Source: Torpedo marmorata
Lineage: Eukaryota
DNA length: 64,000 bases
Assembly: GCA_977017645.1 (NCBI GenBank)
Contig: OZ360221.1
Span: 199,578,001 to 199,642,000, forward strand
Reading direction: 5' to 3'
Shown: piece by piece, positions 1 to 61,457 of the stretch
How positions within the stretch are numbered: position 1 is the first letter of the stretch
Layout of the letters: every line of letters starts with the position of its first letter
The notes under the pieces: model-generated
Database searches by the model: none
The model's input: only the letters and a program-made list of their open reading frames with translations
What the model was told of the DNA's origin: nothing
Program-made: the position numbers and the translations under genes

Positions 1-233
1 CAGTAATAACCAGTCCTTCGTGTAATATACAACAAAAATATACTTCTTCAAAAGTCTCGTGAAAATCATTGAACAGTGATGGTTATCTTCATCTGAAGAA
101 GGTAACTTATCTGAAGGAGGAATAATAGACAGTGAATAAGGTTATTTAAAATAACAATAGTATGTAGATGAATTGGGAAAGTGGGCAAGGATTGGGAGAT
201 GGAATTTAATTTGGACAAATGTGAAGCAATGAA

Positions 234-3200: not shown

Positions 3201-3463
3201 GACATCGGATCTACTGGCGAACCTAACCTCCATAATAGAATTAGTTTATAGATTTATTTTTTAGATTGACATTCTCCTTACTCTATCTTTTTCTTTCTTT
3301 TTATTTTATTTTTATTTTTATTTTATTAGATTAGTAGGGATGGGAGGGTTAGGGAGGGGAGGGCGGGAGGGGGGTGAAAATGTATCACAAGTATTTTGAT
3401 AATTTTATATTTTACCTTATGTATTTTGTGATTTAAAATTTTAAATAAAATATTTTTTTTTTT
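234..3463 (+). mobile_element. 5'-truncated L1 LINE (end of endonuclease, RT, C-terminal Cys region, 3'UTR), frameshifted
   Basis: ORF pieces carry ISDHSPLL, SPGEDGFPSEFYK, YRPISLLNVDYK, LDAEKAFDRLEW and CIPLEKITY. AATAAA near 3444. 17-bp TSD aaatgtgaagcaatgaa at 217-233 and 3464-3480, inside a CR1 fragment. Confidence 0.95.
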
Positions 3464-3480
3464 AAATGTGAAGCAATGAA

Positions 3481-12610: not shown

Positions 12611-12816
12611 AGTGTGTGCTACTGACCTGAAAGAATGTTACTCATAAAGCTAAGTAGCCAATCACAATTCTAATTCTCACAAAGAGCGAAGCAGGAAGCC
12701 CAAATTTAAATCAAAATTCCTGTAATTTTGCAGAGTTCAAAAGAAAGATTGGATCATTCACACAAACCGAGATGCAAGCTGAAATAATAAAGAAACTCTT
12801 TAAGAAGTGAAGTGTT

Positions 12817-15800: not shown

Positions 15801-16801
15801 TTATAAGATTAATTCTGATAAAAGTGAAATTATGGCACTAACACAAGGGGATTATAGTAAATGTAAAGAAATTACACAATTTAAATGGTCAAACGAAGGA
15901 ATTAAATATTTGGGAATAAAGACAGACACAAAATTAGTTAATTTATATAAATTAAATTATATACCATTATTTATGAAAATTAAAAAAGATTTAGAAAGTT
16001 GGAAGGATTTACCTATAACTTTAATAGGAAGGGTAAATTGTATTAAAATGAATGTCTTTCCAAGAATTCAATATCTTTTTCAATCAATTCCTTATGAAAT
16101 TCCTCAGAAATTCTTTAAAGATTTAAATTTAATTATTAGGAAGTTTTTGTGGAAAGGAAAGTTGGCTAGAGTAGCTATGGAGAAATTAACTTGGAATTAT
16201 GAATTGGGTGGTTTACAACTTCCCAATTTTCAAAATTATTATAAAGCAGCTCAATTAAGATTTATTAATGAAATGTTTGATTCAGGAAAATATTCTGCTT
16301 GGATTCGAATAGAATTAAATAATATAGGAGAAGATTTGAAAGAAGAAGTTATTTATAAATGGAATTCTAAATTAGTACTAACAAGAGGGAAAAATTCTCC
16401 TATTTTTAAACATTTGTTAGAAATATGGAATAGAGTGGATAAGGAGATAGGAGGGAAAGGGTTAATTTCGCGAAGAATGCCTTTATACCAAAATAAACTT
16501 ATTCCATTTACTGTCGATAATCAATTATTTAAAATTTGGTTTCAAAAGGGAATTAAGAAAATAAATGATTGTTTTGAAGCTGGTAAATTTATTACTTTTC
16601 AAAGAATGAAAGATAAGTTTAATGTATTAAATAATACATTTTTTGCTTATTATCAAATCAGAGTAATATTAGGTTTTGTGCTATTGTACTTCTCAATTTT
16701 TACATATGATCATTATTGTAACATTTTTTATTAGTTCTGTAGAACATGTATTGTTCTTTTTTTTTTCTATTGTATAAATATCAATAAAAATATTTTAAAG
16801 G
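12817..16801 (+). mobile_element. L1 with 5' inversion and internal deletion (host of a second L1)
   Basis: EN-end and RT-start ORFs on - (12817-13895). C-terminal ORF on + (13939-14550). 3'UTR resumes at 16678 with AATAAA near 16783. TSD agaagtgaagtgtt 12803-12816 vs agaagcgaagtgtt 16802-16815. Confidence 0.9.
14766..16662 (-). mobile_element. L1 with twin-priming 5' inversion
   Basis: 3' end on - (15031-15762) and upstream ORF2 part on + (15763-16662). 15-bp TSD gtaatattaggtttt at 14751-14765 and 16663-16677. Same subfamily as 234-3463. Confidence 0.95.
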
Positions 16802-27372: not shown

Positions 27373-28029
27373 GAAATGAATGTAACAATGTACAGTGATG
27401 GAAATATATGCATATGAAACTCAGAGTGGGAAAAGACTTTGAATGGTTTTCCTTTTGTAAATGATTTATTGTGAATAAAGTCTATTTTGGTAAAAGGAAA
27501 GTAGATTTAACTCTGAGATGAGGAGGAACTGCTTCTCTCAGAGTAGTGAATCTAGAATTCTCTGCCCAAGGAAGCAGTAAAGGCTGCCTCATTAAATGCA
27601 TTTAAGACATGGGTAGATCTTTGAATAGTAGGGGAATTAAGGGTTATGAAGAATAGGTGGGTAAGTGGATCTGAGTCCACAGCCAGATCAGCCATGATCT
27701 TGAGACACACAGGAGACTGCAGATGCAGGAATCTGAAGCCAAACACTGGAGGAACTCAGCATCAGTGTGAGCAAAAAAAATGGATGACGTTTCGGGCTAA
27801 AACCCTTTACCGAGACTGGGGAAATGTGGGAGGAAAGCCATGATATTGAATGCCGGAGCAGACTCAAAGGGCCAGATGGCCAACTCCTGCGCCATATGTT
27901 CTAGTAGAGACTGCAGGTGCTGGAATCTAGATCAAAATCTGGAATCTGGAACAGAACACTGAAAGAATTCGGTGGGTAAAGCAGTATTTACAGAGGCAAA
28001 AGATATATGTTAACTTTTCCAGTCTCAAT

Positions 28030-30200
28030 GTGTCGCCATTCCTGATGCAGGGGACTGGTGTGGGTGTGTCAACAGTCCTGACACAGGGAAGTGATGTTGG
28101 GTCTCGGTGTGTCATCAGTCCTGACACAGGGGACTGATATAGGGTCTCGGTGTGTCATCAGTCCTGACACAGGGGACTGATATAGGGTCTCAGTGTGTCA
28201 TCAGTCCTGACACAGGGGACTGATATAGGGTCTCGGTGTGTCATCAGTCCTGACACAGGGGACTGATATAGGGTCTCAGTGTGTCATCAGTCCTGACACA
28301 GGGGACTGATATAGGGTCTCGGTGTGTCATCAGTCCTGACACAGGGGACTGATATAGGGTCTCAGTGTGTCAACAGTCCTGACACAGGGAAGTGATGTTG
28401 GGTCTCGGTGTGTCATCAGTCCTGACACAGGGGACTGGTATAGGGTCTCGGTGTGTCATCAGTCCTGACACAGGGGACTGATATAGGGTCTCAGTGTGTC
28501 ATCAGTCCTGACACAGGGGACTGATATAGGGTCTCGTTGTGTCATCAGTCCTGACACAGGGAAGTGATGTTGGGTCTCGTTGTGTCATCAGTCCTGACAC
28601 AGGGGACTGATATAGGGTCTCGTTGTGTCATCAGTCCTGATGCAGGGAGTGATGTTGGGTCTCAGTGTGTCATCAGTCCTGACACAGGGGACTGATATAG
28701 GGTCTCGTTGTGTCAACAGTCCTGACACAGGGAAGTGATGTTGGTCTCGGTGTGTCATCAGTCCTGACACAGGGAAGTGATGTTGGGTCTCGTTGTGTCA
28801 TCAGTCCTGACACAGGGGACTGATATAGGGTCTCGTTGTGTCATCAGTCCTGATGCAGGGAGTGATGTTGGGTCTCAGTGTGTCATCAGTCCTGACACAG
28901 GGAACTGATATAGGGTCTCAGTGTGTCATCAGTCCTGACACAGGGGACTGATATAGGGTCTCGGTGTGTCATCAGTCCTGACACAGGGGACTGGTATAGG
29001 GTCTCGGTGTGTCATCAGTCCTGACACAGGGGACTGATGTTGGGTCTCGGTGTGTCATCAGTCCTGACACCTGCGCCCACACCTCCCCCCTCACCACGGT
29101 CCAGGGCCCCAAACAGGCCTTCCAAGTGAAACTACACTTCACTTGTACATCCAGAGAACTTATTTACTGCATCCGGTGCTCCCTTTGTGGTTTTCTATAC
29201 ATTGGAGAGACCGGTCGTAGATTGGGAGACCGCTTTGCTGAGCACCTCCTCTCCGTCCACAACAACAGCGACCTCCCAGTAGCCAACCATTTCAATTCTT
29301 GGTCACACTCCCACACTCACATGTCTGTCCATGGCCTCATGTACTATCCCACCCAGACTACCCGCAAATTGGAGGAACAACATCTCATATTCCGTCTCGG
29401 CACTCTCCAGCCAGATGGCATTAACATTGACTTTTCTGCTTTCCACTAAACCTGCTTGTTGTTCCCTTCCCCTCCCCCCTCACCTGTCCTTCCTGTTTTT
29501 TTCCACCCACCCAGCCATCCCTCCTCCCCCTCTTTGCTGCTGTCCCCTCCCTCCTTTCTCCACCTATCATCTCCTGCCTTTGCCACCCCCCCCCCTTCCC
29601 CCCTCACTCCTTTGTTCGGACGCCTGCCGGCATTTTCTCATACTTTGATGAAGGGCTCAAGCCAGAAACGTCGGTTATGTATTTCTACCTTTGCTACATA
29701 AAAGACACTGTTTGACCTGCTGAGTTCTCCAGCTTTTGTGTTTTTTACTACATTATTACGGTGTCTACAGATTTTCGTGTTTACTTCACAGGGAGTGATG
29801 TTGGGTCTCAGTGTGTCATCAGTCCTGACACAGGGGACTGATGTAGGGTCTCGGTGTGTCATCAGCCCTGACACAGGGGACTGATGTTGGGTCTCGGTGT
29901 GTCATCAGTCCTGACACAGGGGAGTGATGTTGGGTCTCAGTGTGTCATCAGTCCTGACACAGGGGACTGATATAGGGTCTTCAGTGTGTCATCAGTCCTG
30001 ACACAGGGGACTGATATAGGGTCTCAGTGTGTCATCAGTCCTGACACAGGGGACTGATATAGGGTCTCAGTGTGTCATCAGTCCTGACACAGGGGAGTGA
30101 TGTTGGGTCTCGGTGTGTCATCAGTCTTGACACAGGGAAGTGATGTTGGGTCTCAGTGTGTCATCAGTCCTGATGCAGGGAGTGATGTTGGTGTGAAATC
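28030..30200. repeat. 43-bp minisatellite, about 33 copies in two blocks (28030-29070, 29788-30200)
   Basis: Unit gtgtgtcatcagtcctgacacaggggactgatatagggtctc(a/g); period 43 seen at 28141 and 28184. Variant gggaagtgatgttggg. Confidence 0.97.
29071..29787 (+). mobile_element. Penelope 3' fragment (GIY-YIG plus pseudo-LTR) inserted in the minisatellite
   Basis: HFTCTSRELIYCIRCSLCGFLYIGETGRRLGDRFAEH. ttgatgaagggctcaagccagaaacgtcgg at about 29645-29673. Confidence 0.92.
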
Positions 30201-31239
30201 AGTCCCATTGCAGGGGATTATTGTTGGATCTTGGTGTGATGACCTGGAGCTCAAGGCTGTAAATTGGCATCCCAAATCCTGATGTAGGAACTTGACATTA
30301 AACGTTGACATGCCTCTTGCCTTCATAGATGTTGCTTTACCCTCTATGTTCTTTCAGCCTCCTGTTTTTCTTTGCGCTATGCCATTGTCTGCTGTCACCA
30401 TGCATTACTGTTCTATATTTGGTGCGCAAGGCACATTGCATTTATCAATCACATAAGCAAATCCCATGTCACACTACTTGCAATGCAAGGCTGGTCTCCC
30501 TGCTGTAACTAGAATCTCGATTAGACACAGGATTACAAAAGGAACAATAGTGGTGAGTTTGACACCAGCCAGCTGGAGGATCAAATGTCCCCAGTTCTCT
30601 CTTAGAAAACTAGGTTACTTATTGCATTTGATTATCCTGAAACATATAATAGCGCCACTCTATTTATTAGGTCAGAGCACTGACTTGAAAACTTGCTGGG
30701 ATCCCTGCATTCTAAGTTTGATATTGGCTTTTGCCTCTTAACATTTATTCTGAAACAAATGTGAAACCCATGGGCGTAGGTGTTTCACTCGGACAATGGG
30801 TGGGAATGAGAGGAATCCGAGGGGGAAATGGAATTAGGTTCACACGCCAACTGAAACAATTGATTGTATTTCTTCACCCATAGATTTCCCAGTTATAATT
30901 AGCAACACAGCCAAGCAATCATCAGTTAATCGCCTACTGACTGACTGCCTGTCAGCGAATATTACATACAAATTGTTAAAGAGCTTTCAGTGTAATGCGC
31001 GAAGCTCAGATTCTAAACTCCTCTACCGTGCTGACTCCTTTGTGCATTTCCACCAAGCTCAGTTCACTCCCAGAACACCAAAAGACACAATAAATGTGTA
31101 AAAGACCGCAACTTGAAATTTTACTTGGGAAAACTGAGAACATTCCACCGACATTTAGACAACCCATAGTACACACGTTGTAAATTGTAATCAAATATTG
31201 CTTTCGTTAAAAAAAATGGGGGAGGGGGATGCAACAGCA

Positions 31240-44240: not shown

Positions 44241-44553
44241 CTGCAGCAACCATATCACACTGCGATGCAGCCAGCCAGGATGCTCCCAATAGAGCTCCTA
44301 TACAAGGGTGACATGATGGTGGCCGGTGGCCTTGCCCACCTCAGTCTTCTCAGGTGTGCAGTCGCTCGTGCATTTCCTGACAAGTGAGGAAATGTTGTAT
44401 GTCCAGGATAGATAACTACTTGAGTGGATTCCAAGGAACGGTGCTCTCTACTCTCTCCACTGCCAAGCTACTAATGTATAGAGGAGGGTGGTGGTCCGTG
44501 GTCCTCCTGAAGTCTACAGTCATCTTATTTGTCCTGTCCATGTTGAGACTCAG

Positions 44554-45138
44554 TGTAAGAGCCATAGGCTCATTAACTTACCTTGCTGCGGCGCTCCGGC
44601 GCCTCGTCGGCTTGTGGAGCGCTCGCGTTGTCTGTTGGTCCATCGTCGGCCCGTTCTGTGCTCTGTGCATGTGCTGGAGTGCCGACGGGCGCATGCGCAG
44701 TGTGGAGTGAGGTCATTATGCGCGTGGCAGCCTGGGAAATGTAGTATGCGCGGTGGAGGGTGCGCAGTGGTTTAGGGAGGGAGCTTGCGCAAATTTTCTA
44801 GAAAAGGAAAGGAATGAGATGTTAGGAGGGTGAGTGAGATCTCCATATCTTTATTGAACATTTTACATCGTTTTATAACGTTTTTACATCGTTTTACAGC
44901 GTTTTACAGTGTTTCATATCATTTTGGAATTGTTTAAAGAATCATTTAAAGGAACTCTTCATACATCATTTCAAGAACTGTTTATATTGAAGTATTGAAG
45001 ATTACTGCAAGTCACGTGTGTAAATAAAGGTTTTGAACATATTGGACTTTGTTAGTAAATTAATTAAAATGCGTCAAAGACAAAAGTATCTCACTTAGCC
45101 TCCAGGTGACTAAATGTTGGATCGAAGTCACCGTATTA
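44554..45138 (+). repeat. 5' LTR
   Basis: TGTAAGAGCC...ccgtatTA; near-identical to 49697-50281; AATAAA at about 45023. Confidence 0.97.
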
Positions 45139-45583
45139 TAGTCAATAAAAAGCTGGCTGTTTGGAACAGAAGTTTGAAAGAAAGAAGATAGAAAGAACTC
45201 TCTGTGCTTGGGACTGATATAAAATGGTGGCCATCTTGGAGATGCCTCGAGTTGGGGGCAGTTTGTAATCCACAACCACTGCCATGAATAACAGCCAGAG
45301 AGGGATTTAAAGCTTCAAATCTTATAGTAAAGTGTCCAAAATCCGTTGGAGAAACTATTTTTGGAAAATCAATGATATTAGTGACGGATGTTGTGGTTGA
45401 AACTCGTTTGTGGATTGCAGCACATTACAGTCATTTGAAGTGGTAGGCATAAGTCTGTGGACTCCTTCTGTGTATCTTTAGCAAGTAAGAACACAGATTG
45501 GAATTGCTGCCGCTGGTCCATTGGGGACTGTTGTTTGGCTGGTATTGTGTATGATTGAAGGAAAGAGGAACAAGACGAGTAAA

Positions 45584-46350
45584 ATGGCCGCAGCAGCCAC
45601 TGATACAGCAGCTACTGATATATCAGCAGCTGACGCATCAACCGCTGATGTTGCTGTTGAGGACCAACATATTGAAGACATGAAGGTTGCGGATATTAAA
45701 GAAGAATTGAAGCGACTGAAAAAGGACATAAGAGGAAATAAAAGGGTTCTTATCGAAAGATTGAAGCAGGCAAAGGATGAAGAGGCAGCTTCATTAAATG
45801 AACAAGAAGATAACTTGGAAATGGCTGAAATTGTGTCAACAAATGATGAAGAAATTAAAGTGGTTGAAGATGCAAAGGATATACAATTCTAATTGGATAA
45901 AGAGGTAAGTATGAAGACAGCATATGAACTGCAGGACGAAATACAAGCAAGTGACAGTGTCTCAAATGCTGAAAGCAGGAGAAGCAAAAGAAGTTCTGGT
46001 TCGAGCTCCAGAGTTTCTCGTACTTCAAGTTCTGCATCGTCACCTACAAAGATTGATGTTAGATTGGCCGCTCTTCTTGCACAACAAGAATTTCTTAAGG
46101 ATAAACATGTTTTAGAAGAACAGGAGGAGGAACTGAAGGAGGAGCAGCTGAGGCTGAACCAACAACTAAGAAAGAGACAAGAGCAGCTAAGAAAGAAAAA
46201 AGAGCAGCTAAGAAAGAAAAAAGAACAGCAGGAGCTGGAAGCAAACATTGCTATTGCCAAGGCAGAAAAAAAAGCAATAGAAGGCTCAATAGTATTTGGC
46301 GCTCGAAGTAAATTATCTAAAGTGTCTTATAATAAAAGGTCATATTTAAA
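45584..46350 (+). pseudogene. Polyprotein N-terminus: SAP domain (SAFB/SLTM-like) plus Gag coiled coil; one in-frame stop at 45890
   Basis: ATG at 45584 (aaaATGG). IEDMKVADIKEELKRLKKDIRGNKRVLIERLKQA at 45671-45772 fits the SAP pattern. The same frame continues into BEL-type DEI..SDSVSN..SSASS..AALLA..LKDKH.LEEQ. Confidence 0.85.
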
Positions 46351-46412
46351 AAGAGTCACAGGAAAAGAAACCAACCAAAAGGATAGATATTGTAGAACCA
46401 AGGATACAAGAT

Positions 46413-48458
46413 TTGCAAATACAAGGACAAATCTTTCAAGAGCATATTGGTAACGAGTCACATGTACCAATGGTAACATCTGAAGATAAGGCTGCGGCTT
46501 GGGTTCGGTCGAACGAAGCAGCTTCTTTGTTATTTGAGTCAAACATCAGAAATATGGAAGAAACTACACCAGTGAGGTTTCCAGATACATTGCATGCAAC
46601 AAGAAACAGTGAACAGAGCAATATATTGTCGTCCAAGGAAAGACAAAATGAAATTGCTGCATCATTGTTTCAGTTACAGTCTCTCTCTTCTTTACCCAAG
46701 AAAGAGATACAAACTTTTGATGGTGATCCACTTCAATATCAATCATTTATGAGATCTTTCAAACGCAATATTGAAGATAAATGTCAAGATCGTGATGAAT
46801 GTCTTTATTATTTGGAAATGTTCACAAAGGGACATCCAAAAGAATTGGTAAAGAGTTGTAAACAAATGTCTTCAGAAAGAGGATTAGACAAAGCTAAGGC
46901 TTTATTGGAACAATATTTTGGCAACAAGCATCGAATTGCTTTAGCTTATATGGATAAAGCTCTTAAATGGACATCAATAAAACAAAATGATGTAAAGGCT
47001 CTGCAAGAATATACTTTGTTTTTAAGAGGATGTTGTAATGCTATGGAAGAAATCGATAATATTCGTGAGCTTGAAGTGCATAGTAATATGCGAATCATCT
47101 TAGAAAAATTACCTTACAAGTTATGGGATAGATGGAGAGATTTGGCTTGTGATTTACAAGTAGATTATGGTCGAAAAATTGCCTTAAAGGATTTGGTAAA
47201 TTTTCTTGAACGACGGGTGTACGTTGAAACGGATCCACTATATGGAAATACCAGAGATAATTCTATGGGCAAAGATGTAAGGAAGTCTAACACACAGTCT
47301 AGTCCGAAATTGAAAAGGAGTACTTTTGCTACTAATGTGCAAGTTATAAGTAAAGAAAAGGACAAAGTAAATAAGGAAAAGGAAAGTTTGCCTAATGAAA
47401 AGAGTTGTTTGTTCTGTAAAGGTGGACATACTTTGGAAATGTGTTTACGATTGGAAAAGAAGGAACATAAGGAAAAAATCGCTTTCTTAAAGGAAAATGG
47501 AATATGTTTTAGCTGTCTGTGTAAAGGACACATCAGTAAAAACTGCGAGAAGCGAATTAATTGTAACATATGCAATTTGAAACATCCTAGAGTTTTGCAT
47601 ATCCATAACAGAAACAAGGAATTGGAAAAGGAGCAAACAGAAACAAAGGAAACAACAGAAAATAATGTTATAACCTCGGTTCAGACAAGTGGTCTTACCA
47701 GGGCCGGTGTGAATAACTGTAAACTTTCGATAGTGCCTGTACAAGTCAAGACCAAGAAAGGGGATGCAATAGTAAAAACATATGCATTTCTAGACCCAGG
47801 CAGCACTGCATCTTTTTGCACGGAAGGACTAATGAATAAACTTAATATTCAAGGAAAAAGATCAAGAATTATGTTAAAAACCATGGGACAAGAAAAGGTT
47901 GTTGAAACTAACATTGTTTCAGGCTTAGAGGTTGCTGGATTGGATGACAAAAATTTTTGTGATCTTCCAAGTGTATATACTCAGAAGACTATGCCTGTGA
48001 ATGAAGGAAATATTACTCATCAAAGGGATATCCATCATTTAGCTTATCTGTGGAAGGTTTATTTACCTGAAATTAATTCTGAAATAGAAATGCTGATTGG
48101 TTCAGATGTGCCAAAGGTTTTTGTACCAAAAGAAGTAATAGAGAGTAAAAGGAATGGACCTTATGCTGTTAAAACCATGCTTGGTTGGACAATCAATGGA
48201 CCACTGGAAAGAAATAATGATATTGCTCAGGAACAGTTAGCGATAAATATTAATAGAATTTCGGTTGAGAAAGTTGAAGAGTTAAGCGAAGAGCAAAAAA
48301 CCGTGAATAAGAAAATCACTTTTGAAGAAAAGAAAACAGATCAATGTGAAAATAAATCAATGGTATTTAAAACAACATTGAAGGAATTAATTTCGTCAGA
48401 AATGGATGAAAGTGAAGTATTAGAAGATGTTGCAAATAATACTATTGATCATGTGTAA
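46413..48458 (+). CDS. BEL Gag core (DUF1759-like), zinc knuckles and aspartic protease
   Basis: LPKKEIQTFDGDPLQY, CLFCKGGHTLEMC, CFSCLCKGHISKNC, CNICNLKHPRVLH, YAFLDPGSTASF and GPYAVKTMLGWTINGP. Confidence 0.95.
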   Translation: MQIQGQIFQEHIGNESHVPMVTSEDKAAAWVRSNEAASLLFESNIRNMEETTPVRFPDTLHATRNSEQSNILSSKERQNEIAASLFQLQSLSSLPKKEIQTFDGDPLQYQSFMRSFKRNIEDKCQDRDECLYYLEMFTKGHPKELVKSCKQMSSERGLDKAKALLEQYFGNKHRIALAYMDKALKWTSIKQNDVKALQEYTLFLRGCCNAMEEIDNIRELEVHSNMRIILEKLPYKLWDRWRDLACDLQVDYGRKIALKDLVNFLERRVYVETDPLYGNTRDNSMGKDVRKSNTQSSPKLKRSTFATNVQVISKEKDKVNKEKESLPNEKSCLFCKGGHTLEMCLRLEKKEHKEKIAFLKENGICFSCLCKGHISKNCEKRINCNICNLKHPRVLHIHNRNKELEKEQTETKETTENNVITSVQTSGLTRAGVNNCKLSIVPVQVKTKKGDAIVKTYAFLDPGSTASFCTEGLMNKLNIQGKRSRIMLKTMGQEKVVETNIVSGLEVAGLDDKNFCDLPSVYTQKTMPVNEGNITHQRDIHHLAYLWKVYLPEINSEIEMLIGSDVPKVFVPKEVIESKRNGPYAVKTMLGWTINGPLERNNDIAQEQLAININRISVEKVEELSEEQKTVNKKITFEEKKTDQCENKSMVFKTTLKELISSEMDESEVLEDVANNTIDHV

Positions 48459-48484
48459 TTGAATCAAATATAGGAATAAAACAA

Positions 48485-49333
48485 GTGACTGAAAACAAAT
48501 CTGAATGTAGATTTTGTAGTTCAGAGATTACAACAGACAAAGCTAATGAAGAAAGATTACAATGTGATGTAAAACTGGAAAACACAGAAAATTGTGCTGA
48601 TGGAATAAAGAATAATGTGAATGATAATTTAATGCAATTGAATTCAGAGAACAAAATGTTGAAAGGGGAATTGGAAATATTAGATAATCAAGAAAACAGT
48701 AAACAGAAAGATTTAATTGTAAGTAAAACTTGCAAAGTCAGAAAGCGGAAGAAAAGAATAACTGCTGAAGAAATGAATACAGTTATTGAGGAAAGAGATT
48801 CAGCATTATCAAAATGTAAAAGGTTGGAGGAAGAGATTAATGTTTTGAAAGAGAACAAGTTATTGGTTAATAACTCAAAACAGTTGACTCTAAAAACCAA
48901 TCAAGAATGTAAATTGAATGTTCAACAATTAACAATGCAGAAAGAATGTGATATTGCATTGCAGAAATGTAACAAGCAAGACGAAGAAATTAAAAAATTT
49001 CAAGTTTGCCGCAACAGGATTGACAATGGAAATATCCATGTATCACATGATATTTTGACTTCAGATCAAATTATTAATTTCTCGGAAAGAACTGAGACTG
49101 AATTGAAAGTTGCAAAATTGGATTTAGAATTGCAGGAAAGAGCAATAGAAACCAGATTGGTTAAACAGACCTGTTTAAAATCGAAAGGATCAGATAAATA
49201 TTCAAATTCTAATTCTAAGAGTTTAAATTCTTCACATGAGAAGTGGAATACTGAAGAAAGGAATAAAGTGAAACGACATGCTGAAGAAGTGCCTTGTGTT
49301 AAATTCAAAAGAAAAACTATCTATTTTATCTGA
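48485..49333 (+). CDS. Coiled-coil ORF containing a MIPOL1-like segment (48713-49006) in place of pol
   Basis: RITAEEMNTVIEERDSALSKCKRLEEE closely resembles vertebrate MIPOL1 as I recall it (RITAEEMSALIEERDAALSKCKRLEQE). Weaker similarity continues to EEIKKFQV. Confidence 0.8.
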   Translation: MTENKSECRFCSSEITTDKANEERLQCDVKLENTENCADGIKNNVNDNLMQLNSENKMLKGELEILDNQENSKQKDLIVSKTCKVRKRKKRITAEEMNTVIEERDSALSKCKRLEEEINVLKENKLLVNNSKQLTLKTNQECKLNVQQLTMQKECDIALQKCNKQDEEIKKFQVCRNRIDNGNIHVSHDILTSDQIINFSERTETELKVAKLDLELQERAIETRLVKQTCLKSKGSDKYSNSNSKSLNSSHEKWNTEERNKVKRHAEEVPCVKFKRKTIYFI

Positions 49334-49400
49334 GGAAGATTTGAAGTTTACTGGTTGACGTTTTAACTCAAAGATTATAGAGATAAAAGAACTTTAAAGA

Positions 49401-49493
49401 GGCATTGTGATTATTATGGATAATTCAACTTCAAGAAACTCCTGGTTACTTGGAAAAATTATTGAGACTTTTCAAGACAAAGAGGAACTTTGA
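49401..49493 (+). pseudogene. Remnant of the BEL integrase C-terminal domain (DUF5641-like)
   Basis: Manual translation GIVIIMDNSTSRNSWLLGKIIETFQDKEEL* fits the GD.V.I.D...PRN.W.LG.I...FPD pattern. Confidence 0.8.
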
Positions 49494-49696
49494 TAAATGT
49501 AAACTGACTTTATTTGTTGTTGTATATTTCACAGGCTACAGACTTTTGTTGAATCAGAGTTATGGTAAACTCTAGATTTATGAAGAAGGAAGAAAGAAGA
49601 TTTGTATTGTTTGAATGTTACGGTTATTGTTATTATAATTTTATAGTGTAATTATTATTCAAGACATTGCGTCTAATTATAATAATTAGGGGCCGG

Positions 49697-50281
49697 TGTA
49701 AGAGCCGTAGGCTCATTAACTTACCTTGCTGCGGCGCTCCGGCGCCTCGTCGGCTTGTGGAGCGCTCGCGTTGTCTGTTGGGCCGTCGTCGGCCCGTTCT
49801 GTGCTCTGCGCATGCGCTGGAGTGCCGACGGGCGCATGCGCAGTGTGGAGTGAGGTCATTGTGCGCGTGGCAGCCTGGGAAATGTAGTATGCGCGGTGGA
49901 GGGTGCGCAGTGGTTTAGGGAGGGAGCTTGCGCAAATTTTCTAGAAAAGGAAAGGAATGAGATGTTAGGAGGGTGAGTGAGATCTCCATATCTTTATTGA
50001 ACGTTTTACATCGTTTTATAACGTTTTTACATCGTTTTACAGCGTTTTACAGTGTTTCATATCGTTTTGGAATTGTTTAAAGAATCATTTAAAGGAACTC
50101 TTCATACATCATTTCAAGAACTGTTTATATTGAAGTATTGAAGATTACTGCAAGTCACCTGTGTAAATAAAGGTTTTGAACATATTGGATTTTGTTAGTA
50201 AATTAATTAAAACGCGTCAAAGACAAAAGTATCTCACTTAGCCTCCAGGTGACTAAATGTTGGATCGAAGTCACCGTAATA
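49697..50281 (+). repeat. 3' LTR
   Basis: TGTAAGAGCC...ccgtaaTA, preceded by the PPT and followed by TSD ctcag. Confidence 0.97.
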
Positions 50282-52379
50282 CTCAGGTTGTTATTTACGC
50301 ACCATTTCACGAGATTTTCCATCTCCTCTGTAGTGCGACTCATTGCTGTTGCTGATGAGGCCAACTACAGTTGTGTCATATGCAAACTTGATGACTCTGT
50401 TGGAGCTGGATCTGGCGTGGGTCAGTAGCATTAACAGGAGCGGGCTGAGCACGCAGCCCTGATGTGCGCCAGTGCTCAGCATGATGGTGCTTGACGTTCT
50501 GCTGCCGACCTGGACAATTCTGTGTTCTTTCCGTTAGGAAGTCCAGAACCCAGTTAGAGAGAGGGGTTTTGAGTCCCAGCGAGGACAGCTTCTCCACCAG
50601 CCTCTGGGGAATGAGCTGAAGTCAATGAACATCAGCCTGGCGTATGAGGCATTGTTCTCCAGGTGGGTCAGAACAGAGTAGAGGGACACGTTTATAGCAT
50701 CATAAGTGGAACAGTTCTATCTTCAGGTGAGCTGAAAGGGGTCCAGTGTCACTGGGAGGTTTGCTTTGATGCGTTCCATCATCAGATGCTCGAAACATTT
50801 CATAATGGTCAAGGTCAGTGCGACTGGGCGGTAATCGTTGAGGCTTGTTCCTGTCGCCCTCTTTGGTTCCGGGATGATGATGGCTGTGTTGAATGGGGAC
50901 AATGGACTGCAGCGGTGAGGTGTTGAAGATGTCCGTTAAGACCTCAGTCAGTTGGTCTGCGCATACCAGGTATGTTCTCTGGTCCCGCTGCCATGTGTGG
51001 TTTCACCTTGGATAGGGTTCTTCTCACCTCAGCCGCAGCGAGGGACAGGGAACTTTCTTCGGCGTCAGCCTTTTCTTCTTGTTGAACCGTGCGTAGAAGG
51101 TGTTAAGCATGTCTAGAAGAGAAGCGTCATTGTCTTTGACTTGCAAGGTTGACTTGTGGTCTGTTATAAGTTTGATCCCTTGCCTCATGCGCCTAGTGTT
51201 GCCGGTAACTCACAGCTGTCTGTGGATCGTCTGTACATACCCCTGCTTTGCCTTCCGGATTGCATGGGAGAGTTCAACACTGGCTGATCTTAGTGCCATC
51301 TTATCTCCTATCCTGAAGGGAGCATCACGAGCTCTGACAAGTGCATGGATCTCTGCATCCAATCGTGGTTTCTGGTTAGCCCTGGTTGTGAAGCATTTGA
51401 TCTTGGTGACATCCTCAAGCACTTACTGACGTGGTCAGTCAAAGAGCTCGTGTCCTCCTCAATGTTTACATGATGCTGCCGCAAAACACCGAATTTCATG
51501 ACTTGTTCATGACAATAAATTCTAATTCTAATTCTGACTGTTGTAGGTGGCTGCCTCCCTGAAGCAGTTCCAGTCTGTGGTCTCAAGGCAGTCATGTTGT
51601 GCTGCTGCTGTCCCCCACCCCCGGCCATGTCCTGGTCTCCCTGTGAACTGGCATTGTTAGTTTTGCCAGCGGCCTTTATGCTGGAGTTAGCAGGTCTGAT
51701 ATATGATCCGAGTATCCAAGATGGGGGCGAGAGGCAGTCTTGTACACGTTCGTGTACACCCTATCCAGGGTGTTCTCTCCTCTTGTGGCCAGGTGCACCT
51801 ACATGGTAGATCTGTTTTCAGTCCGTACTATTACATGACAATAAAGGAATCTTGAATGAGCTGGAGAAACTCAGCAGGTTATGCAGCATCCATACATTTT
51901 GGGTCTTGTCCCTTCATCACGTTCAACCTTACCTGACAACGGGCCCAGGCCCAAAACTTTGGTAACCCTTCACTTCTTATGGATACTGTGTGACCTGCTG
52001 AGTTTCTCCACCACATTTGTGTATTGCATCCGACCCCACCATCTGCAGACTTTCTTGTTTAATCAGTATAAATAACTACTTGTCAGACAGCAAGCACATG
52101 TTGGGACAAATGGTGATTCTGATTGGGACTTTGTCCTGAAACGTTAGAGTTGCACAGCATGGAAACAGACCATACAACCAAATTCACAAAAACTGCCTAC
52201 TTGAGGTACTGTACTTCCCAAAGTTCCCTATCCCTCTAACCTTCTCCTATCCATGTACTCTTCTGCATGTTTAATGAACTTTGAATTGTACCCACCTCAT
52301 GACCTCCCCAGGCAGCTTGATCCACCTTCCCACTCTCCTTTGTGTTGTCCCTCGGGCCCCCTTTAAACCTTAAATCTCT

Positions 52380-55598: not shown

Positions 55599-58500
55599 GG
55601 GGACGTCACGTGATGCCGTAGGGTTAGGACGTAGGAACCTGACCCTCCTGGGAATCTCAAAAAAAGTATCAATAAACAAAGTTTTATAAAATTTAAACCT
55701 TTTTAAAAAGCATCTGAACACTAGAAAAATACTCCAAATGCCTCAGAAAAAAGAAAAAACAGCTGCAGCCTTACCACGAGCCCAATGCAAGGAGAAGACT
55801 GGAACGGGTAGAAGGCCTCAGCAGCAGGGACCTAGCGTTCAAACTGATCCCGAGGTGAGTGGATCGCTGGCAGGGACCTCTGCTGGCGGTGTGTACCTCC
55901 GACATCGGAAAGATGGCGCTGAGGAAGAACCCGGAAGTGCAATGCGCACACGCAAAACGTCGGGACACTCAGATGAGTCTACAACGTCAGGAGAAGAGGA
56001 GTCGGGTCTCCCTAGCTCTGACAGCGAGGAAAATGAGGTGGAAATGGAAAAACAGCAACAACAAGAGGAGGTAATGGAAGAAACTGAAAGTAAAAAGCAA
56101 AAAAAACAAGCAATTCAGACATATTAAAAGAGTTGAAAAAATGAAGGTTGAAATGAAAGGGGAGATTAATAAAGTGGTTAATGAGATAAAAGAAATAAAG
56201 AAAAAATTGGATAAAATGGATGGACAAATGAAGAAGGCACAGGATGAGATGGAACATCTTGATGACAGAACGACTAAAGTGGAAAATACTACTACAAGTT
56301 TAACAATGGAAAATCAGAAGCTTCAACAGAAAGTAGATATACTGGAGAACTTTAGTAGAAGGAATAATATAAAAATTGTGGGTCTTAAAGAAGGAATAGA
56401 AGAGCAAGACCCAATTGGTTTTTTAGAAAGTGGATACCTGAAGTCTTGGGACCAGAGAATTTTGAACATCCAATTGAGTTTGAAAGAGCACATAGGGCTC
56501 TAAGAGGGAAACCACTTCAAGATCAGAATCCACGCTCTGTTTTAATTAAATTTCTTCGTTATCAGGATAGAGAGAAGATTCTGAAACTGGCGATGGAACG
56601 AGCAAGAATACGCAAAGGCCCTTTTGAATATAAAGGTGGCAGAATTCTATTCTATCCCGATATAAGTGCTGATTTAATGAAGAGAAGAAGAGAATTTAAT
56701 CCAGCCAAGAAGATCCTTTGGGAGAAAGGTTACAGATTTGTACTGCGTCACCCGGCGACTTTGAATATTTTTTTGCCTGAAGAACAAAATAAATTCTTCT
56801 CAAGTTATGTACAGGCAGAAGAGTTTGCTAAAAATCTTATGATAATGCAGAGGGATTGAAGAAGAAAAATTAAAAACTTGGATTGCTATAACTATGTCCT
56901 ACAAGGATTATATCATTTACAGCAGCTTGTGAACTTGATTAATCTAGTAATTGGTTATTTTAAAAAAAGGTAAATGTACCAGGGGTGTTGGGGAAGAGGA
57001 TGAAGTTCTAACTCTGCTGGATCATTTGTGTTTTTGCGACCTTGGTCGCGACCTGTAAAATAGAGGGGGGGTTGCGCTGTATAGTTAAACAGCGCTAGAT
57101 GGGGAAAATTTATTTTGTTTTTATACTATTGTGAAAGTTGGGAAATATATTTTTTAATTCTATACTTATTCTTTTTTCTTTATGTGGATTGCCGGAGGAG
57201 ACATGTGACGACGCAATGGAGATTGGATAATGAAGTTAAAGGGAGGGATTTAGCAGACTGGGGTGGAGGAGGTAACACTAAAAAGAATGAATATGGTTAT
57301 TCAAAATGAGTAAGATAGTGAAATTTATGAACTTTAATATCAGTGAAGAGGAAGAGAGTATTAACATATATTAAAAAATTGGGAATAGATGTGGTTTGTT
57401 TACAAGAGACACACTTAACTGAAAAAGAACATTTGAAATTAAAAAGAGATTGGGTGGGATTTGTAGCAGCAGCTTCATTTAACTAAGGCAAGAGGTGTGG
57501 CAATTCTAATAAAAAAGTAATCTCCCAATTAAAATTCAAAACATTGTGATGGATCCTGTAGGGAGATATGTAATGATATATTGCCAAATATATTCGGAGT
57601 TTTGGATTTTTTTGAATCTATATGCCCCTAATGTGGATGATGATAAATTTATTCAAGAAACTTTTCTTAATATAGCAGAGGCACATGAAAATATTATAAT
57701 AGGAGGAGACTTCAATTTTTGTTTAGATCCAATTTTAGATAGATCTACAAGGGGAGTGAAGAGAACTAAGGCAGCAAAAGCTACATTGGTACTAATGAAA
57801 GACTTAAATTTAATAGATGCTTGGAGGAGAATACATCTTAGAGAAAGGGATTATTCATTTTATTCGAATAGACACGATTCTTACTCTAGAATTGATTTAT
57901 TTTTAACTTCAGCCCAATTGCAAGATAGGATTCTAGAAGTAGAATATAAAGCAAGGATTTTGTCTGACCACTCACCTTTATTAATGACAATTGCCATGCC
58001 TGATAAAGAAAAAAACAATATATAGGTGGAGATTAAACCCATTATTATTAAAAAGAACAGACTTGTGGTTTTATGAGACAAATTCAGATATTTTGTGAAA
58101 CAAATTTAAACTCTGTGAATGATAAGTTGTAATATGGGAAACTCTGAAAGCGTATCTGAGAGGTCTAATTATAAGTTATACCTCAAAAATCAAAAAGGAA
58201 TATATGAGAGATATAGACCAATTAGAAACAGAAATAACGGTTTTAGAAAAGGACTTCAAAAGAGAAGTTCTGAAGATGAGCGTAGGCAACTAATGAACAA
58301 AAAATTTCAGTATAATGTATTACAAACTTACAGAACGGAGAAGACTATTACAAGAACTAAACAGACATTATGAATTAGGTGAGTGATCACACAAGGTCTT
58401 AGCATGGCAATTAAAAACTGAACAGGCTTCAAGAACAATCAATGCAATTAAAAGCAACTCTAATGTTATTAGTTATAAACCCCAAAAGATAAATGACTCT

Positions 58501-61457
58501 TAAAAATTTCTATTCTAAATTATGTAAAACAGAGTCTTTGCAAGATGATAGTAAAATAGACAGATAGTTATCGCAGATAAATTTACCAAGACTAAATATG
58601 CAAGAACAGTTAGAATTGAGTACTCAGCTTACACAGGAAGAAGTGAAAAAAGCAATGAGTTCACTACAAAGTAATAAAGCTCCGGGAGAGGATGGCTTCC
58701 CACCTGAGTTCTATAAAGAGTTTAAAGACCTATTAATTCCTGTCTTTATGGAAATGTTAAGACAGGCATCAGTAACTAATTCTCTCCCGGAATCTTTTTC
58801 AACAGCAATAATTACTGTAATACCAAAGAAAGATAGAGATCCATTGAAGCCCTCGTCTTATAGACCAATTTCATTATTAAATGCAGATTATAAAATTGTA
58901 GCCAAAATCTTGGCTAATAGAATGACTAAATTGTTACCTAAATTAGTAAATATGGATCAGACAGGCTTTATATAAAAAAAAAAGACAATCGGCTGATAAT
59001 GGAGCAAGATTACTTAGTATTATTCATTTAGCTCAAAAAAGGAAAGTATTAAGTGTTGCGGTGGCTTTAGATGCGGAAAAAGCGTTTGATAGATTGGAGT
59101 GGGACTTTCTGTTGAAAGTGTTGGAGAAATTTTGATTTGGACAGACCTTCATAAACTGGATTAAAGCATTATACAACGGTCCAAAAGCCAAAGTAGTGAC
59201 TAATGGACAAATATCAACTCCGTTCTATTTGACAAGGTCTAGTGGACAAGGATGCCCACTGTCACCAGCTTTATTTATATTAGCTATAGAACCACTTGCA
59301 GAGGCAATTAGAAGAGATTTGGAAATTAAGGGATTTAGGGTTGGTCAAGAAGAATATAAAATTAGTTTATTTGCGGACGATTTTTTAATATACTTGACAG
59401 AACCTGAGACCTCTTTACGAAGATTGCATCTTAAATTGGAAGAATATGGAGAGATCTCAGGTTATAAAATAAATTGGGATAAAAGTGAAATTATGTCCCA
59501 TAGAAGGAGATTATACTTTATGTAAAAGAAATACTCCGTTTAAATGGCCACATAATGGGATTAAATATCTAGGATTTCGATCAGATAATAATTTAAAAAA
59601 TCTATATAAATGGAATTATTTACCATTACTTAAAAAGGTTAAAGAAGATTTGGAAAAATGGATGAGTTTGCCCATAACATTGATAGGAAGAGTTAATTGT
59701 ATTAAAATGAACGTATTTCCAAGAATACAATATCTGTATCAAACCATACCTATCTTATTACCACAAGGGTTTTTCCAAGAGTTAAATAAATATGTGAGAA
59801 AATTCCTTTGGAGATGTAAAATGTCAAGAGTCTCTATAGAACGCTTAACATGGAAATATGGTTCAGGGGGCTTGCAGCTTCCTAATTTCAAGAATTATTA
59901 TCGAGCGGCTCAAATGAGATTTCTTACTTCTTTTTTTGAAAGGGAGGAAAAACCTGCATGGGTTAAAATAGAGTTAGGAAAAATAAGAGAGAGAGTAGCA
60001 GAAGAATTTATATATTAATGGAACTCAAAATTATTAGTAGGAGTTAAGGAAGCGCCATTATTAAAACATTTGATTAATGTTTGGAACAAGATTAACAACG
60101 AAATAGGGACAAAAGGGGGTATATCACCCAAAATGCCCTTGACTCAGAATAATCTTATATTTTTTACAAGAGACAATCAATTTTTAAATATATGGTTCCA
60201 GAAAGGAATTAAGAAGATAGAAGACTGTTACGAAAGGGGTCAATTGATGTCGTTTGCACAGTTAAGAAATAAATACAGAATAAGGAACAATATTTTTTGT
60301 TATTTTCAATTAAGAGGGCACAAGGGAAAAACTAGGTTCAGACATGTTGTTACAAAGTTGTAGTGAAGTGGAAACTCTTATTAGAAAAGGAAATACTAAA
60401 AAAATTACTTCTATGGTGTACTCTTTGTTACAAAGAGGGACCCTTAAACAAGGAGTTCATAAATCTAGACAGAGGTGGGAACAAGATCTGAATGTGATAA
60501 TTGATGAACAAAGATGGTCAGATTTATGTCGAGATAGCATGACCAACACTATTAATGTAAGATATAGATTAGTTTAGTATAATTTTTTACATCAGCTATA
60601 TCTTACACCACAAAAATTGAATAAAATGAAATCAGAATTGTCAAATCAGTGTTTTAGATGTGGTGAAGGAGTGGGAACTTTCTTGCATTCAAGTTGGTTA
60701 TGCTCTAAGGTAAGACCCTTTTGGGTGGAACTAGGGAAACAAATTACAGGAGTTACACTTCCACAAAACCCTGATTTATTTTTGCTGGGGAATGTGGAAA
60801 GAACTAGACCAAAATTGAAATTATCAACATATCAATTGCAATTTGTTAAAATTGCTCTAGCGGTAGCGAGGAAGTGTATCGCAGTAACCTGGAAATCAGA
60901 CATAAACTTAGGTATGGAAAGATGGAATACAGAGATAGAGAGTTGTATTCCCTTGGAAAAAATAACATACAACATGAGAAATAAATATGGGGGTTTCCTG
61001 CAAATTTGGCATCCATATATCCAGACATTAGGTATAAATATGTAAATGTTTCTTCCACATCTTAGGCCCTATGCTAACTCCCTCAAAACTAAACTGACAG
61101 AAACACTGTTGAAAATTTGCGTCAGACTGTGAATCTCCGGGCAATCCATATATTTGTTTTTATAAGTAATATTACATTACTTTATTTTTTTATTTTTCCT
61201 TCTTTCTCTTTCGTAGATATTAGGAGGAGGAGGGAAGCTAAGGGGAGGGAGTGGGTTGAGGGTGGGTTTCGAAATATTAATAATAATTTTAATTTGAAAT
61301 GTTGGAAAAGTTGTTATGGGATTTGAGGGGTTAAGGGAGGGGGTAGATTACACCATGTAATATAACATGAATGTATTCTTTCTGAAGTTAATAATGTACA
61401 TTATTTACGTATGTATTACATGTGTGTGAAAATTTAAAATAAAATATTCCAAAAAAA
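55599..61457 (+). mobile_element. Full-length L1 (5'UTR, ORF1 55738-56859, ORF2 57306-61045, polyA), inactivated
   Basis: 5' gggggacgtcacgtgatg. ORF1 LENFSRRNNIKIVGL, ERAHR, FYPDISA. ORF2 QETH, NLYAPN, GGDFN, SRID, SDH, QGCPLSP, FADD. 18-bp TSD aacattaaaaacacaccg at 55581-55598 and 61458-61475. Confidence 0.97.

What the first reader, a model, noticed from the sequence alone, without database searches (positions are those of the whole stretch)
48485..49333. Intronless MIPOL1-like coiled coil replaces pol
Seen: LIVSKTCKVRKRKKRITAEEMNTVIEERDSALSKCKRLEEEINVLKE...NNSKQLT..NQE..L...L.MQ......Q...K..EEI. From memory, human MIPOL1 reads IIVDRIYKTKECKMRITAEEMSALIEERDAALSKCKRLEQELHHVKEQ...NNMRHLT..NQE..L...LLSMQ...QQYKKLEEEI, giving 22 of 27 identities in the core. 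Inference: about 100 codons were captured from spliced mRNA by template switching. After protease cleavage the segment could act as a scaffold or as a decoy for the host protein.
Basis: partly seen in the sequence, partly recalled or inferred. Interest (0 to 1): 0.85.

Follow-up and report, generated by a model that had tools for sequence, protein, structure and literature searches.

The report
Transposon carrying a circular RNA copy
In an electric ray genome, a jumping gene swapped its copying enzymes for spliced pieces of three host genes (BRCA1, MIPOL1, Elongin A), with the MIPOL1 exons in the order a circular RNA would give, and then spread to about twenty thousand places.

Summary
The MIPOL1 match is real (E 5e-25), but it is only part of the feature. 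Window 44554-50281 is a non-autonomous BEL/Pao LTR element. Its RT, RNase H and most of the integrase are replaced by spliced pieces of three host genes: BRCA1, MIPOL1 and Elongin A. The MIPOL1 exons run f-g-h then b-c. The h-to-b join lies exactly at the host splice donor of exon h and the acceptor of exon b, 206 kb upstream in the gene: a back-splice order, so the template was most likely a circular RNA (780 nt, no stop in frame). Two 20-mers over this join match 20,291 places in the genome (controls 1 and 0). Intact autonomous partners share the LTR ends, gag and protease. In the lineage the pieces keep their native frames and avoid stops (0 internal, about 10 expected), yet amino acids are barely constrained (dN/dS 0.7-1.05 for MIPOL1; protease 0.25-0.3). 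Best reading: a translated filler that keeps the stop codon near the 3' LTR, not a MIPOL1 decoy. LTR-mediated gene capture and circRNA pseudogenes are both known; this combination and scale did not come up in my literature searches. Neither the circle nor expression was observed.

The parts
44549..44553 (+). target-site duplication, left copy (5 bp)
   Evidence: same 5-mer follows the 3' LTR
44554..45138 (+). 5' LTR, 585 nt, TG...TA ends
   Evidence: 12 differences from the 3' LTR over 581 compared bases; ends shared with autonomous partners
45482..48296 (+). SAP domain, BEL/Pao gag (DUF1759, Cys-His knuckles) and aspartic protease (FLDPGS); broken in this copy by a stop near 45890 and a frame break near 46350
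   Evidence: Pfam SAP 4.5e-08, DUF1759 8.5e-06, DUF1758 0.0085 (below its cut-off); 85-96% nt to autonomous partners; breaks
48292..48710 (+). spliced BRCA1 fragment (two host exons in this copy, four in older copies); frame break near 48448 in this copy
   Evidence: host gene on G000:C61
48709..49014 (+). MIPOL1 exons f (3' part), g and h, spliced
   Evidence: host gene on G000:C40
49014..49015 (+). back-splice-type join: last base of MIPOL1 exon h to first base of upstream exon b
   Evidence: host splice sites; offset exactly 95 nt in 35 of 38 host-like and 27 of 30 window-type copies
49015..49159 (+). MIPOL1 exons b (1-73) and c (21-90), with an 81-nt in-frame lineage deletion between them
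49159..49375 (+). spliced Elongin A fragment; the ORF of this copy ends at 49333
   Evidence: host gene on G000:C41
49399..49490 (+). remnant of the integrase tail (DUF5641 region), no longer in the ORF
   Evidence: 89-91% nt to autonomous partners; Pfam on L115
49481..49696 (+). 3' untranslated region and polypurine tract
   Evidence: shared with autonomous partners
49697..50281 (+). 3' LTR
50282..50286 (+). target-site duplication, right copy

Best explanation
This is one copy of a non-autonomous BEL/Pao LTR retrotransposon family. Shown: its RT, RNase H and most of the integrase are replaced by spliced BRCA1, MIPOL1 and Elongin A pieces, in sense and in one frame with gag-protease, and the MIPOL1 exons are joined h-to-b at exact splice sites. 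Inferred (about 0.9): host RNAs were co-packaged in the particle and copied by template switches of the reverse transcriptase. Inferred (about 0.85): the MIPOL1 template was a circular RNA of exons b-h, read once across its back-splice join for about 587 of 780 nt. Inferred (about 0.9): the element is mobilised in trans by the intact partners, and the cassette was moved onto a newer LTR-gag-protease by recombination. Inferred (about 0.55): the cassette is kept as translated filler. The element must still be translated; a stop straight after the protease would leave about 1.4 kb more of 3' UTR and invite nonsense-mediated decay. So frame and absence of stops are selected while amino acids drift. 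A circle whose length is a multiple of three and has no stop suits that filter.
For: Host exon borders and the join. No second copy of exon b or c in the tiles from exon a to exon i, and no hit to exon i or the end of exon a in any of the copies searched. Circle of 780 nt with 0 stops. BRCA1 and Elongin A pieces spliced and colinear. 13 of 14 RNase-H-bearing loci share LTR ends, gag-protease and 3' end with the window element, and 0 of 14 carry MIPOL1 exons. 14,933 + 5,358 motif matches, controls 1 and 0. Joins or indels shared by 3 or more of 70 copies keep the native frame in 13 of 15 cases, against 28 of 96 single-copy events (Fisher p 3e-5). No internal stop in 340 codons with 180 substitutions, 10.5 expected, 0 of 20,000 simulations without one. 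Cassette dN/dS between old and young copies 0.73-0.84 (intervals include 1), against gag 0.31-0.42 and protease 0.25-0.29. For the same pairs of elements dS is 0.60-0.67 in gag-protease but 0.25-0.29 in the cassette, while gag-protease is only 0.04-0.11 from present autonomous partners. The stop lies 333-355 nt before the polypurine tract in young copies with an unbroken tail, 112 nt in old copy L062 and 188-195 nt in partners; the protease ends 1,391 nt before it. Precedents: PMC5131818, PMC4897178, circRNA packaging by Gag (abstract), NMD risk of long retroviral 3' UTRs (abstract).
Against: The circular RNA was not observed and no RNA holder was on record, so translation and decay are untested. 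Against the host, the whole cassette gives dN/dS 0.58-0.69 with upper bounds 0.86-0.97 in 5 of 6 copies. That is some constraint, though the host branch and transition bias both lower this simple count. Two shared changes do shift the frame: one in 7 copies near the ORF end, one in 4 copies at an A-run. 13 of 15 events seen in exactly two copies also shift, and these were left out of both classes. The join from Elongin A back to the integrase tail is in the integrase frame in only 1 of 10 old copies. Sequence shared at the BRCA1-MIPOL1 switch is only 2 nt (4 of 5 allowing a mismatch), and about 20 nt between MIPOL1 and Elongin A have no assigned source. Most copies examined were picked by similarity.
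Confidence: 0.65

Rival explanations
1. The chimeric tail works as a protein: a coiled-coil scaffold or spacer in the particle, or a decoy for host MIPOL1, BRCA1 or Elongin A partners after protease cleavage.
For: Stops and frameshifts are avoided. Whole-cassette dN/dS against the host is about 0.6, with intervals mostly below 1; the BRCA1 part of young and intermediate copies is 0.41-0.57. All three pieces sit in their native frames.
Against: MIPOL1 part 0.69-1.05. Element-to-element cassette 0.73-0.84. Lineage deletions of 24-291 nt cut through every piece, and the Elongin A Pfam domain of old copies is gone from young ones. 69% aa identity to host MIPOL1. Autonomous partners move without it.
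Confidence: 0.15
2. The permuted MIPOL1 order did not come from a circle but from a linear transcript with repeated exons (trans-splicing), or from the reverse transcriptase jumping between the AG ends of exons a and h on a linear mRNA.
For: Both would give the same join; exons a and h both end in AG. The captured length is under one round of the circle, so rolling-circle copying is not shown.
Against: Both ends fall exactly on splice sites, including the first of two tandem acceptors. No sequence from outside exons b-h was found. No genomic duplicate of exons b-c between exons a and i. A mouse exonic circ-Mipol1 is reported, exons not stated in the passages seen (PMC9888537).
Confidence: 0.12
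3. The cassette is kept for its RNA: host-gene sequence shelters the element from piRNA silencing, because silencing it would also hit BRCA1, MIPOL1 and Elongin A; the open frame is secondary.
For: Junction motifs (20,291) outnumber first-look candidates for the Pao RNase H family (6,618), though these counts are not comparable in kind. Old copies are 92-98% identical to host exons.
Against: The larger, younger subfamily has drifted to 78-89% identity with the host, which weakens mimicry. Two thirds of the element is still transposon sequence shared with the partner. It does not explain stop avoidance.
Confidence: 0.06
4. An ordinary LINE-made processed pseudogene landed inside a BEL/Pao element and was carried along.
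For: The window is full of LINE fragments, and MIPOL1 is listed as a top retrocopy parent of cartilaginous fishes in a preprint that ties retrocopies to non-LTR elements.
Against: Pol is replaced, not interrupted. There is no poly(A) tail or target duplication at any join. Three internal fragments of three genes on three contigs sit in one frame.
Confidence: 0.02

Closest known systems
LTR-mediated retrocopies in animals (Tan et al. 2016, PMC5131818; passages and a supplement search seen)
   Same: Part of the internal ORF replaced by partial spliced mRNA, both LTRs kept, several parent genes possible (mouse 'Super', four genes in MERVL), further rounds as a non-autonomous element; a BEL example from mosquito.
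   Different: In the passages seen, copies number one to a few insertion sites. 'Circular' occurs 0 times in the main text and 0 times in 9 supplement files searched (one file not searched). Here there are over 20,000 junction matches, one piece is back-spliced, and frame keeping is measured along the lineage.
circRNA-derived pseudogenes (Dong et al. 2016, PMC4897178; whole main text read, supplements not)
   Same: Exon-exon join in reversed order, only circle-resident exons, no poly(A); 33 mouse circRFWD2 copies with MMERVK10C-int LTR sequence marked beside them.
   Different: There the mechanism is called mysterious and the circle is known from RNA-seq. Here the carrier, its autonomous partner and the switch points are visible, the piece is in frame with gag-protease, and matches are about 600 times as many, but the circle itself is inferred.
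Maize Bs1 (seen only as summarised in PMC5131818)
   Same: LTR element holding partial sequences of three unlinked cellular genes, amplified afterwards.
   Different: Plant element; no back-splice join is mentioned in that passage. The original papers were not read.
Autonomous BEL/Pao elements of the same genome (L115-L127)
   Same: LTR ends, primer-side and polypurine-side sequence, SAP-gag, protease motif.
   Different: They keep a single ORF of about 2,020-2,130 aa with RT, Pao RNase H and integrase, and have no MIPOL1 exons.

Membership tests
BEL/Pao LTR retrotransposon | paired LTRs with a short target-site duplication | tested here: met
   585-nt LTRs, 98% alike, 5-bp duplication; ends are TG...TA, as in the partners
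BEL/Pao LTR retrotransposon | DUF1759 gag followed by DUF1758-type protease | tested here: met
   DUF1759 over its cut-off; DUF1758 only 0.0085, below cut-off; protease motif identical to partners
BEL/Pao LTR retrotransposon | RT, Pao RNase H and integrase after the protease | tested here: not met
   absent from the window element, present in partner L115; so it is a non-autonomous derivative, not a full member
LTR-mediated retrocopy (Tan et al. 2016) | internal ORF replaced by partial spliced host RNA between two LTRs, no poly(A) | tested here: met
LTR-mediated retrocopy (Tan et al. 2016) | microsimilarity at the switch points | tested here: inconclusive
   2 nt (4 of 5 with a mismatch) at BRCA1-MIPOL1; about 20 unassigned nt at MIPOL1-Elongin A; the donor element for the outer joins is not in hand
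LTR-mediated retrocopy (Tan et al. 2016) | further retroposition as a non-autonomous element | tested here: met
   dispersed copies with own flanks and LTR pairs
LTR-mediated retrocopy (Tan et al. 2016) | co-transcription from the LTR | not testable with these tools
   no RNA holder on record
circRNA-derived pseudogene (Dong et al. 2016) | non-colinear exon-exon join at true splice sites | tested here: met
   exon h donor to exon b acceptor; 35 of 38 and 27 of 30 copies at the exact offset
circRNA-derived pseudogene (Dong et al. 2016) | only exons that lie inside the circle | tested here: met
   f, g, h, b, c and the first about 18 nt of d; no hit for the end of exon a or for exon i
circRNA-derived pseudogene (Dong et al. 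2016) | the same join is seen in an expressed circular RNA | not testable with these tools
   needs RNase R RNA-seq of an electric ray

The most novel reading that the evidence does not exclude
Selection on a pol-less LTR element favours host RNAs that can be read through without a stop, so stop-free in-frame circular RNAs are preferred cargo. This family would then be a direct record of a circular RNA packaged and copied in a BEL/Pao particle, carried across successive helper lineages since early electric rays. It would give the genome some 20,000 partial BRCA1-MIPOL1-Elongin A copies (roughly 2% of it if most are full length) that could feed small RNAs or peptides back onto those three genes.
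Probability: 0.25. Interest if true: 0.9.

Novelty: new variant of a known kind. Interest (0 to 1): 0.78.

Why it matters
It gives a concrete route for how circular RNAs get written into genomes, which the founding paper left open: the carrier, its helper and the switch points are all visible. It is also a fossil record of a circular RNA in a fish lineage where none was looked for here. Thousands of dated copies make it testable why a pol-less element keeps a long open frame. It offers another explanation for MIPOL1 heading a published list of retrocopy parents in cartilaginous fishes: one capture amplified by an LTR element rather than many LINE events or selective retention. Which species drive that list could not be checked. 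In practice, BRCA1, MIPOL1 and Elongin A reads and gene models in electric rays will be confounded by these copies.

Tried and rejected
Pfam (local copy) found nothing in the flagged ORF. A search of 1.84 billion representatives with the three-gene ORF of L064 gave 735 hits; none of the 150 listed spans two of the three pieces in its best stretch, so no annotated fusion protein in another species was found. No RNA holder was listed among 22 runs; this is no evidence on expression. Laying four coded runs: X2 and X6 (organisms B and E) cover 30 of 30 bins at summed depths in the hundreds to thousands, but no listed piece spans the stretch and X6 is only guessed to be RNA. X4 and X5 have depths mostly under 10 and could be carry-over from a high-copy source, so I do not count them. 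Inverted repeats flank exons b and h (3 pairs in 13 kb by 11 kb), but direct repeats do too and the genome is repeat-rich: not counted. My first reading that the Elongin A-to-integrase join is in frame came from L064 alone and was dropped after 9 of 10 old copies disagreed. A tandem duplication of exons in the host gene was rejected. No structure or complex prediction was run, as nothing claimed here rests on a fold or on binding. Literature searches that found no description of this family: MIPOL1 + retrotransposon (7 papers), MIPOL1 + circular RNA (19), circRNA-derived pseudogene terms (37, 20 listed), LTR template-switch terms (4), circMIPOL1 (0), non-autonomous LTR + BRCA1 + Elongin A (18), BEL Pao + Torpedo/Narcine (58, 20 listed), circular RNA + LTR + particles (7). 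Listings only, except the papers named as read; most subscription journals and Repbase/Dfam entries are not covered. Earlier scan findings: nothing by sequence or by words.

Full report
OBSERVATION. Its best relatives are MIPOL1 proteins, led by a stingray at E 5e-25 (186 hits, 120 listed); BLASTP with composition adjustment gives 43% over 184 columns, E 1e-31. A second short match to an earlier part of MIPOL1 lies downstream of the main one; this was the first sign of a permuted order.

THE ELEMENT. The ORF lies in an LTR element: 585-nt LTRs at 44554-45138 and 49697-50281 with 12 differences, a 5-bp target duplication and a polypurine tract. Pfam finds SAP, DUF1759 and, below cut-off, DUF1758, but no RT, RNase H or integrase. 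A search of the own genome for the Pao RNase H family scored 150 of 6,618 candidates. I fetched 14 of them, chosen for long open frames. Thirteen align to the window element at 85-96% over element positions 1-3741 and again at 4844-4935 and 4926-5726; none has MIPOL1 exons. L115 has one 2,054-aa ORF with SAP, gag, RT, RNase H and integrase. So about 1.1 kb of foreign sequence stands where RT, RNase H and most of the integrase were. The window copy is itself broken (a stop near 45890; frame breaks near 46350, 48448 and 49317). Siblings show one ORF from gag through the foreign part (L057, 1,203 aa).

THE MIPOL1 PIECE. I located the host gene on C40, tiled all 320 kb between exon a and exon i and read the splice sites. 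With my letters, exons b-h are 136, 106, 130, 34, 171, 108 and 95 nt, 780 in all, with no stop when read round in frame. The element holds f (from base 48), g, h, then b, c and about 18 nt of d. The last base of h, which precedes GT in the host, is followed by the first base of b, which follows AG in the host 206 kb upstream in the gene. The offset is exact in 35 of 38 host-like copies and 27 of 30 window-type copies; 29 of the 38 keep the 11 bases around the join unchanged. Only one b and one c exist in the tiles, and no copy matched exon i or the end of exon a. This is the signature used to define circRNA-derived pseudogenes (PMC4897178, whole main text). A linear transcript with repeated exons would look the same and is not excluded.

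TWO MORE GENES. The stretch before MIPOL1 is BRCA1: 4 hits, all BRCA1, best Narcine E 3e-56; the first 91 residues of the flagged ORF align at 59%. The stretch after it is Elongin A (Pfam 7e-16 in L064; PDB Elongin-A 7.5e-37). Host genes lie on C61 and C41. Old copies carry four spliced BRCA1 exons and four or five spliced Elongin A exons in normal order. The BRCA1 start (base 49 of its first exon in the longest copies), the BRCA1-MIPOL1 join and the Elongin A start and end are the same across old copies. So the cassette was built once and later shortened by deletions.

SCALE AND AGE. A 20-mer over the join as it reads in the window matches 14,933 places with up to two mismatches; the host-like 20-mer matches 5,358; reversed controls match 1 and 0. 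The two patterns differ at six positions, so the sets do not overlap; intermediate forms such as L093 fall in neither, and tandem units such as L066 count more than once. The host probes each hit one gene, so the assembly is not doubled. A protein tree of 9 copies, the host and 11 named or database proteins groups the copies (98% support) with the host and Narcine (100%), apart from other rays. At 3 of 3 sites where the host changed and 3 of 3 where Narcine changed, old copies keep the outgroup state. The order within that trio is unresolved and no clade test was run. So capture falls on the electric-ray branch, at or before that split, which predicts the family in Narcine. For the same pairs of elements (L057 against L060 and L062) dS is 0.60-0.67 in gag and protease but 0.25-0.29 in the cassette, while L057 is 0.04-0.11 from present autonomous partners. 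The cassette is therefore older than the gag-protease it now rides on, which needs recombination with the helper lineage.

WHAT IS SELECTED. Nei-Gojobori counts on single copies give dN/dS for MIPOL1 of 0.85-1.08 in six window-type copies and 0.69-0.83 in three with a stricter alignment, all with wide intervals that include 1. The whole cassette against the host is 0.58-0.69 (below 1 in 5 of 6 copies). Between old and young copies it is 0.73-0.84 (3 of 3 include 1). Gag is 0.31-0.42 and protease 0.25-0.29. Changes are mostly G>A, C>T and C>A. The frame is another matter. Among 70 copies (5 duplicates and L066 left out), the script counted 19 of 21 events shared by three or more copies as in frame, and 28 of 96 single-copy events. 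By hand I removed three plain splice joins, one duplicate and two changes that are probably host-side, which leaves 13 of 15 (p 3e-5). The 15 two-copy events, 13 of them shifts of 1-4 nt, were in neither class. L005 has 180 substitutions in 340 codons and no internal stop, where 10.5 are expected. Of the first 10 plus-strand exact matches on C1, which were not chosen by similarity, 7 keep one frame from BRCA1 into Elongin A and 5 have no stop. The return to the integrase tail is out of the integrase frame in 9 of 10 old copies, yet in three of them the other frame runs on about 68 codons. Old and young copies alike thus stop a few hundred bases or less from the 3' LTR when unbroken.

MECHANISM. 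Shown: anatomy, splice-exact joins, partner, copy number, frame keeping, weak amino-acid constraint. Inferred: co-packaging and template switching, as modelled in PMC5131818 (passages); a circular template, made plausible by Gag-driven packaging of circRNAs in retroviral particles (bioRxiv 10.64898/2026.01.21.700838, abstract only); mobilisation in trans; and selection against an early stop, because long 3' UTRs expose retroviral RNA to nonsense-mediated decay (PMC2925335, abstract only). The last step is the least certain (about 0.55). A mild protein role remains possible (0.15).

COMPARISON AND NOVELTY. It works like an LTR-mediated retrocopy and meets the sequence criteria of a circRNA-derived pseudogene. 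It is not a full BEL/Pao member, since pol is missing. Multi-gene capture (mouse Super, maize Bs1) and LTR-associated circRNA pseudogenes (33 circRFWD2 copies) are known. My nine completed searches found no account of this family, of a back-spliced piece in frame with gag-protease, or of such numbers; these searches cover open-access text only. One preprint lists MIPOL1 first among retrocopy parents of cartilaginous fishes, with no LTR explanation in the 12 passages shown; its supplements were closed and may name the species. A shark and ray genome-size preprint does not mention Pao, MIPOL1 or BRCA1.

VERDICT. Real, well supported as sequence, and richer than reported: a new variant of a known kind. 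Interest 0.78.

Noticed in passing
G000:C40:64340k, 64408k, 64487k, 64495k (L093, L086, L078, L077): Four copies of this element family sit inside introns of the host MIPOL1 gene itself, within 320 kb.
   Followed up: partly
bioRxiv 10.64898/2026.06.26.734816, section 6: MIPOL1, SUDS3, SDF2L1, SLU7 and ZNF276 are named as top retrocopy parents in cartilaginous fishes; the other four may be further LTR-borne cassettes.
   Followed up: no
L066:8836-9937: A second element in this locus has a 405-nt unit (MIPOL1 f68 to b102) repeated in tandem and in frame, so the back-splice join occurs three times; junction counts therefore slightly exceed element counts.
   Followed up: partly
P0197 residues 1-195: The Narcine BRCA1 isoform X2 model begins with a stretch that looks like a retrotransposon gag (my reading, not tested) and lacks the RING Pfam hits of the Pristis protein: a misannotation or an exonised element.
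   Followed up: no
L132 (G000:C25:175318002-175318310): A second, intronless-looking Elongin A match with a stop, covering residues outside the captured part: possibly a separate retrocopy or paralogue.
   Followed up: no
L068:6881 (G000:C40:64591881): Host MIPOL1 exon b has two acceptors 3 nt apart; the element records use of the first.
   Followed up: yes
host BRCA1 exon at G000:C61:25488548: The host has lost 9 nt that both the element and Narcine BRCA1 keep, in line with capture before this lineage's own changes.
   Followed up: partly
L061:6530-7666: A Tc5/pogo-type DNA transposon ORF (Brinker, HTH_Tnp_Tc5, DDE_1) is inserted in an old copy's cassette.
   Followed up: no
window 44554-45138 and partners L115-L120: LTRs of this family end TG...TA rather than TG...CA, and gag starts with a SAP domain in both autonomous and non-autonomous forms. 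Several autonomous copies have 99.7-100% identical LTR pairs, so the family is very young or active.
   Followed up: partly
window 27928-30266: Tandem array with a 43-nt period.
   Followed up: no
window 225-3191, 12754-16734, 55690-61045: Decayed LINE-type elements with endonuclease-RT-like frames, plus CR1/L2-like, Penelope-like and tRNA-SINE-like pieces across the window (family names are my reading of the translations).
   Followed up: no
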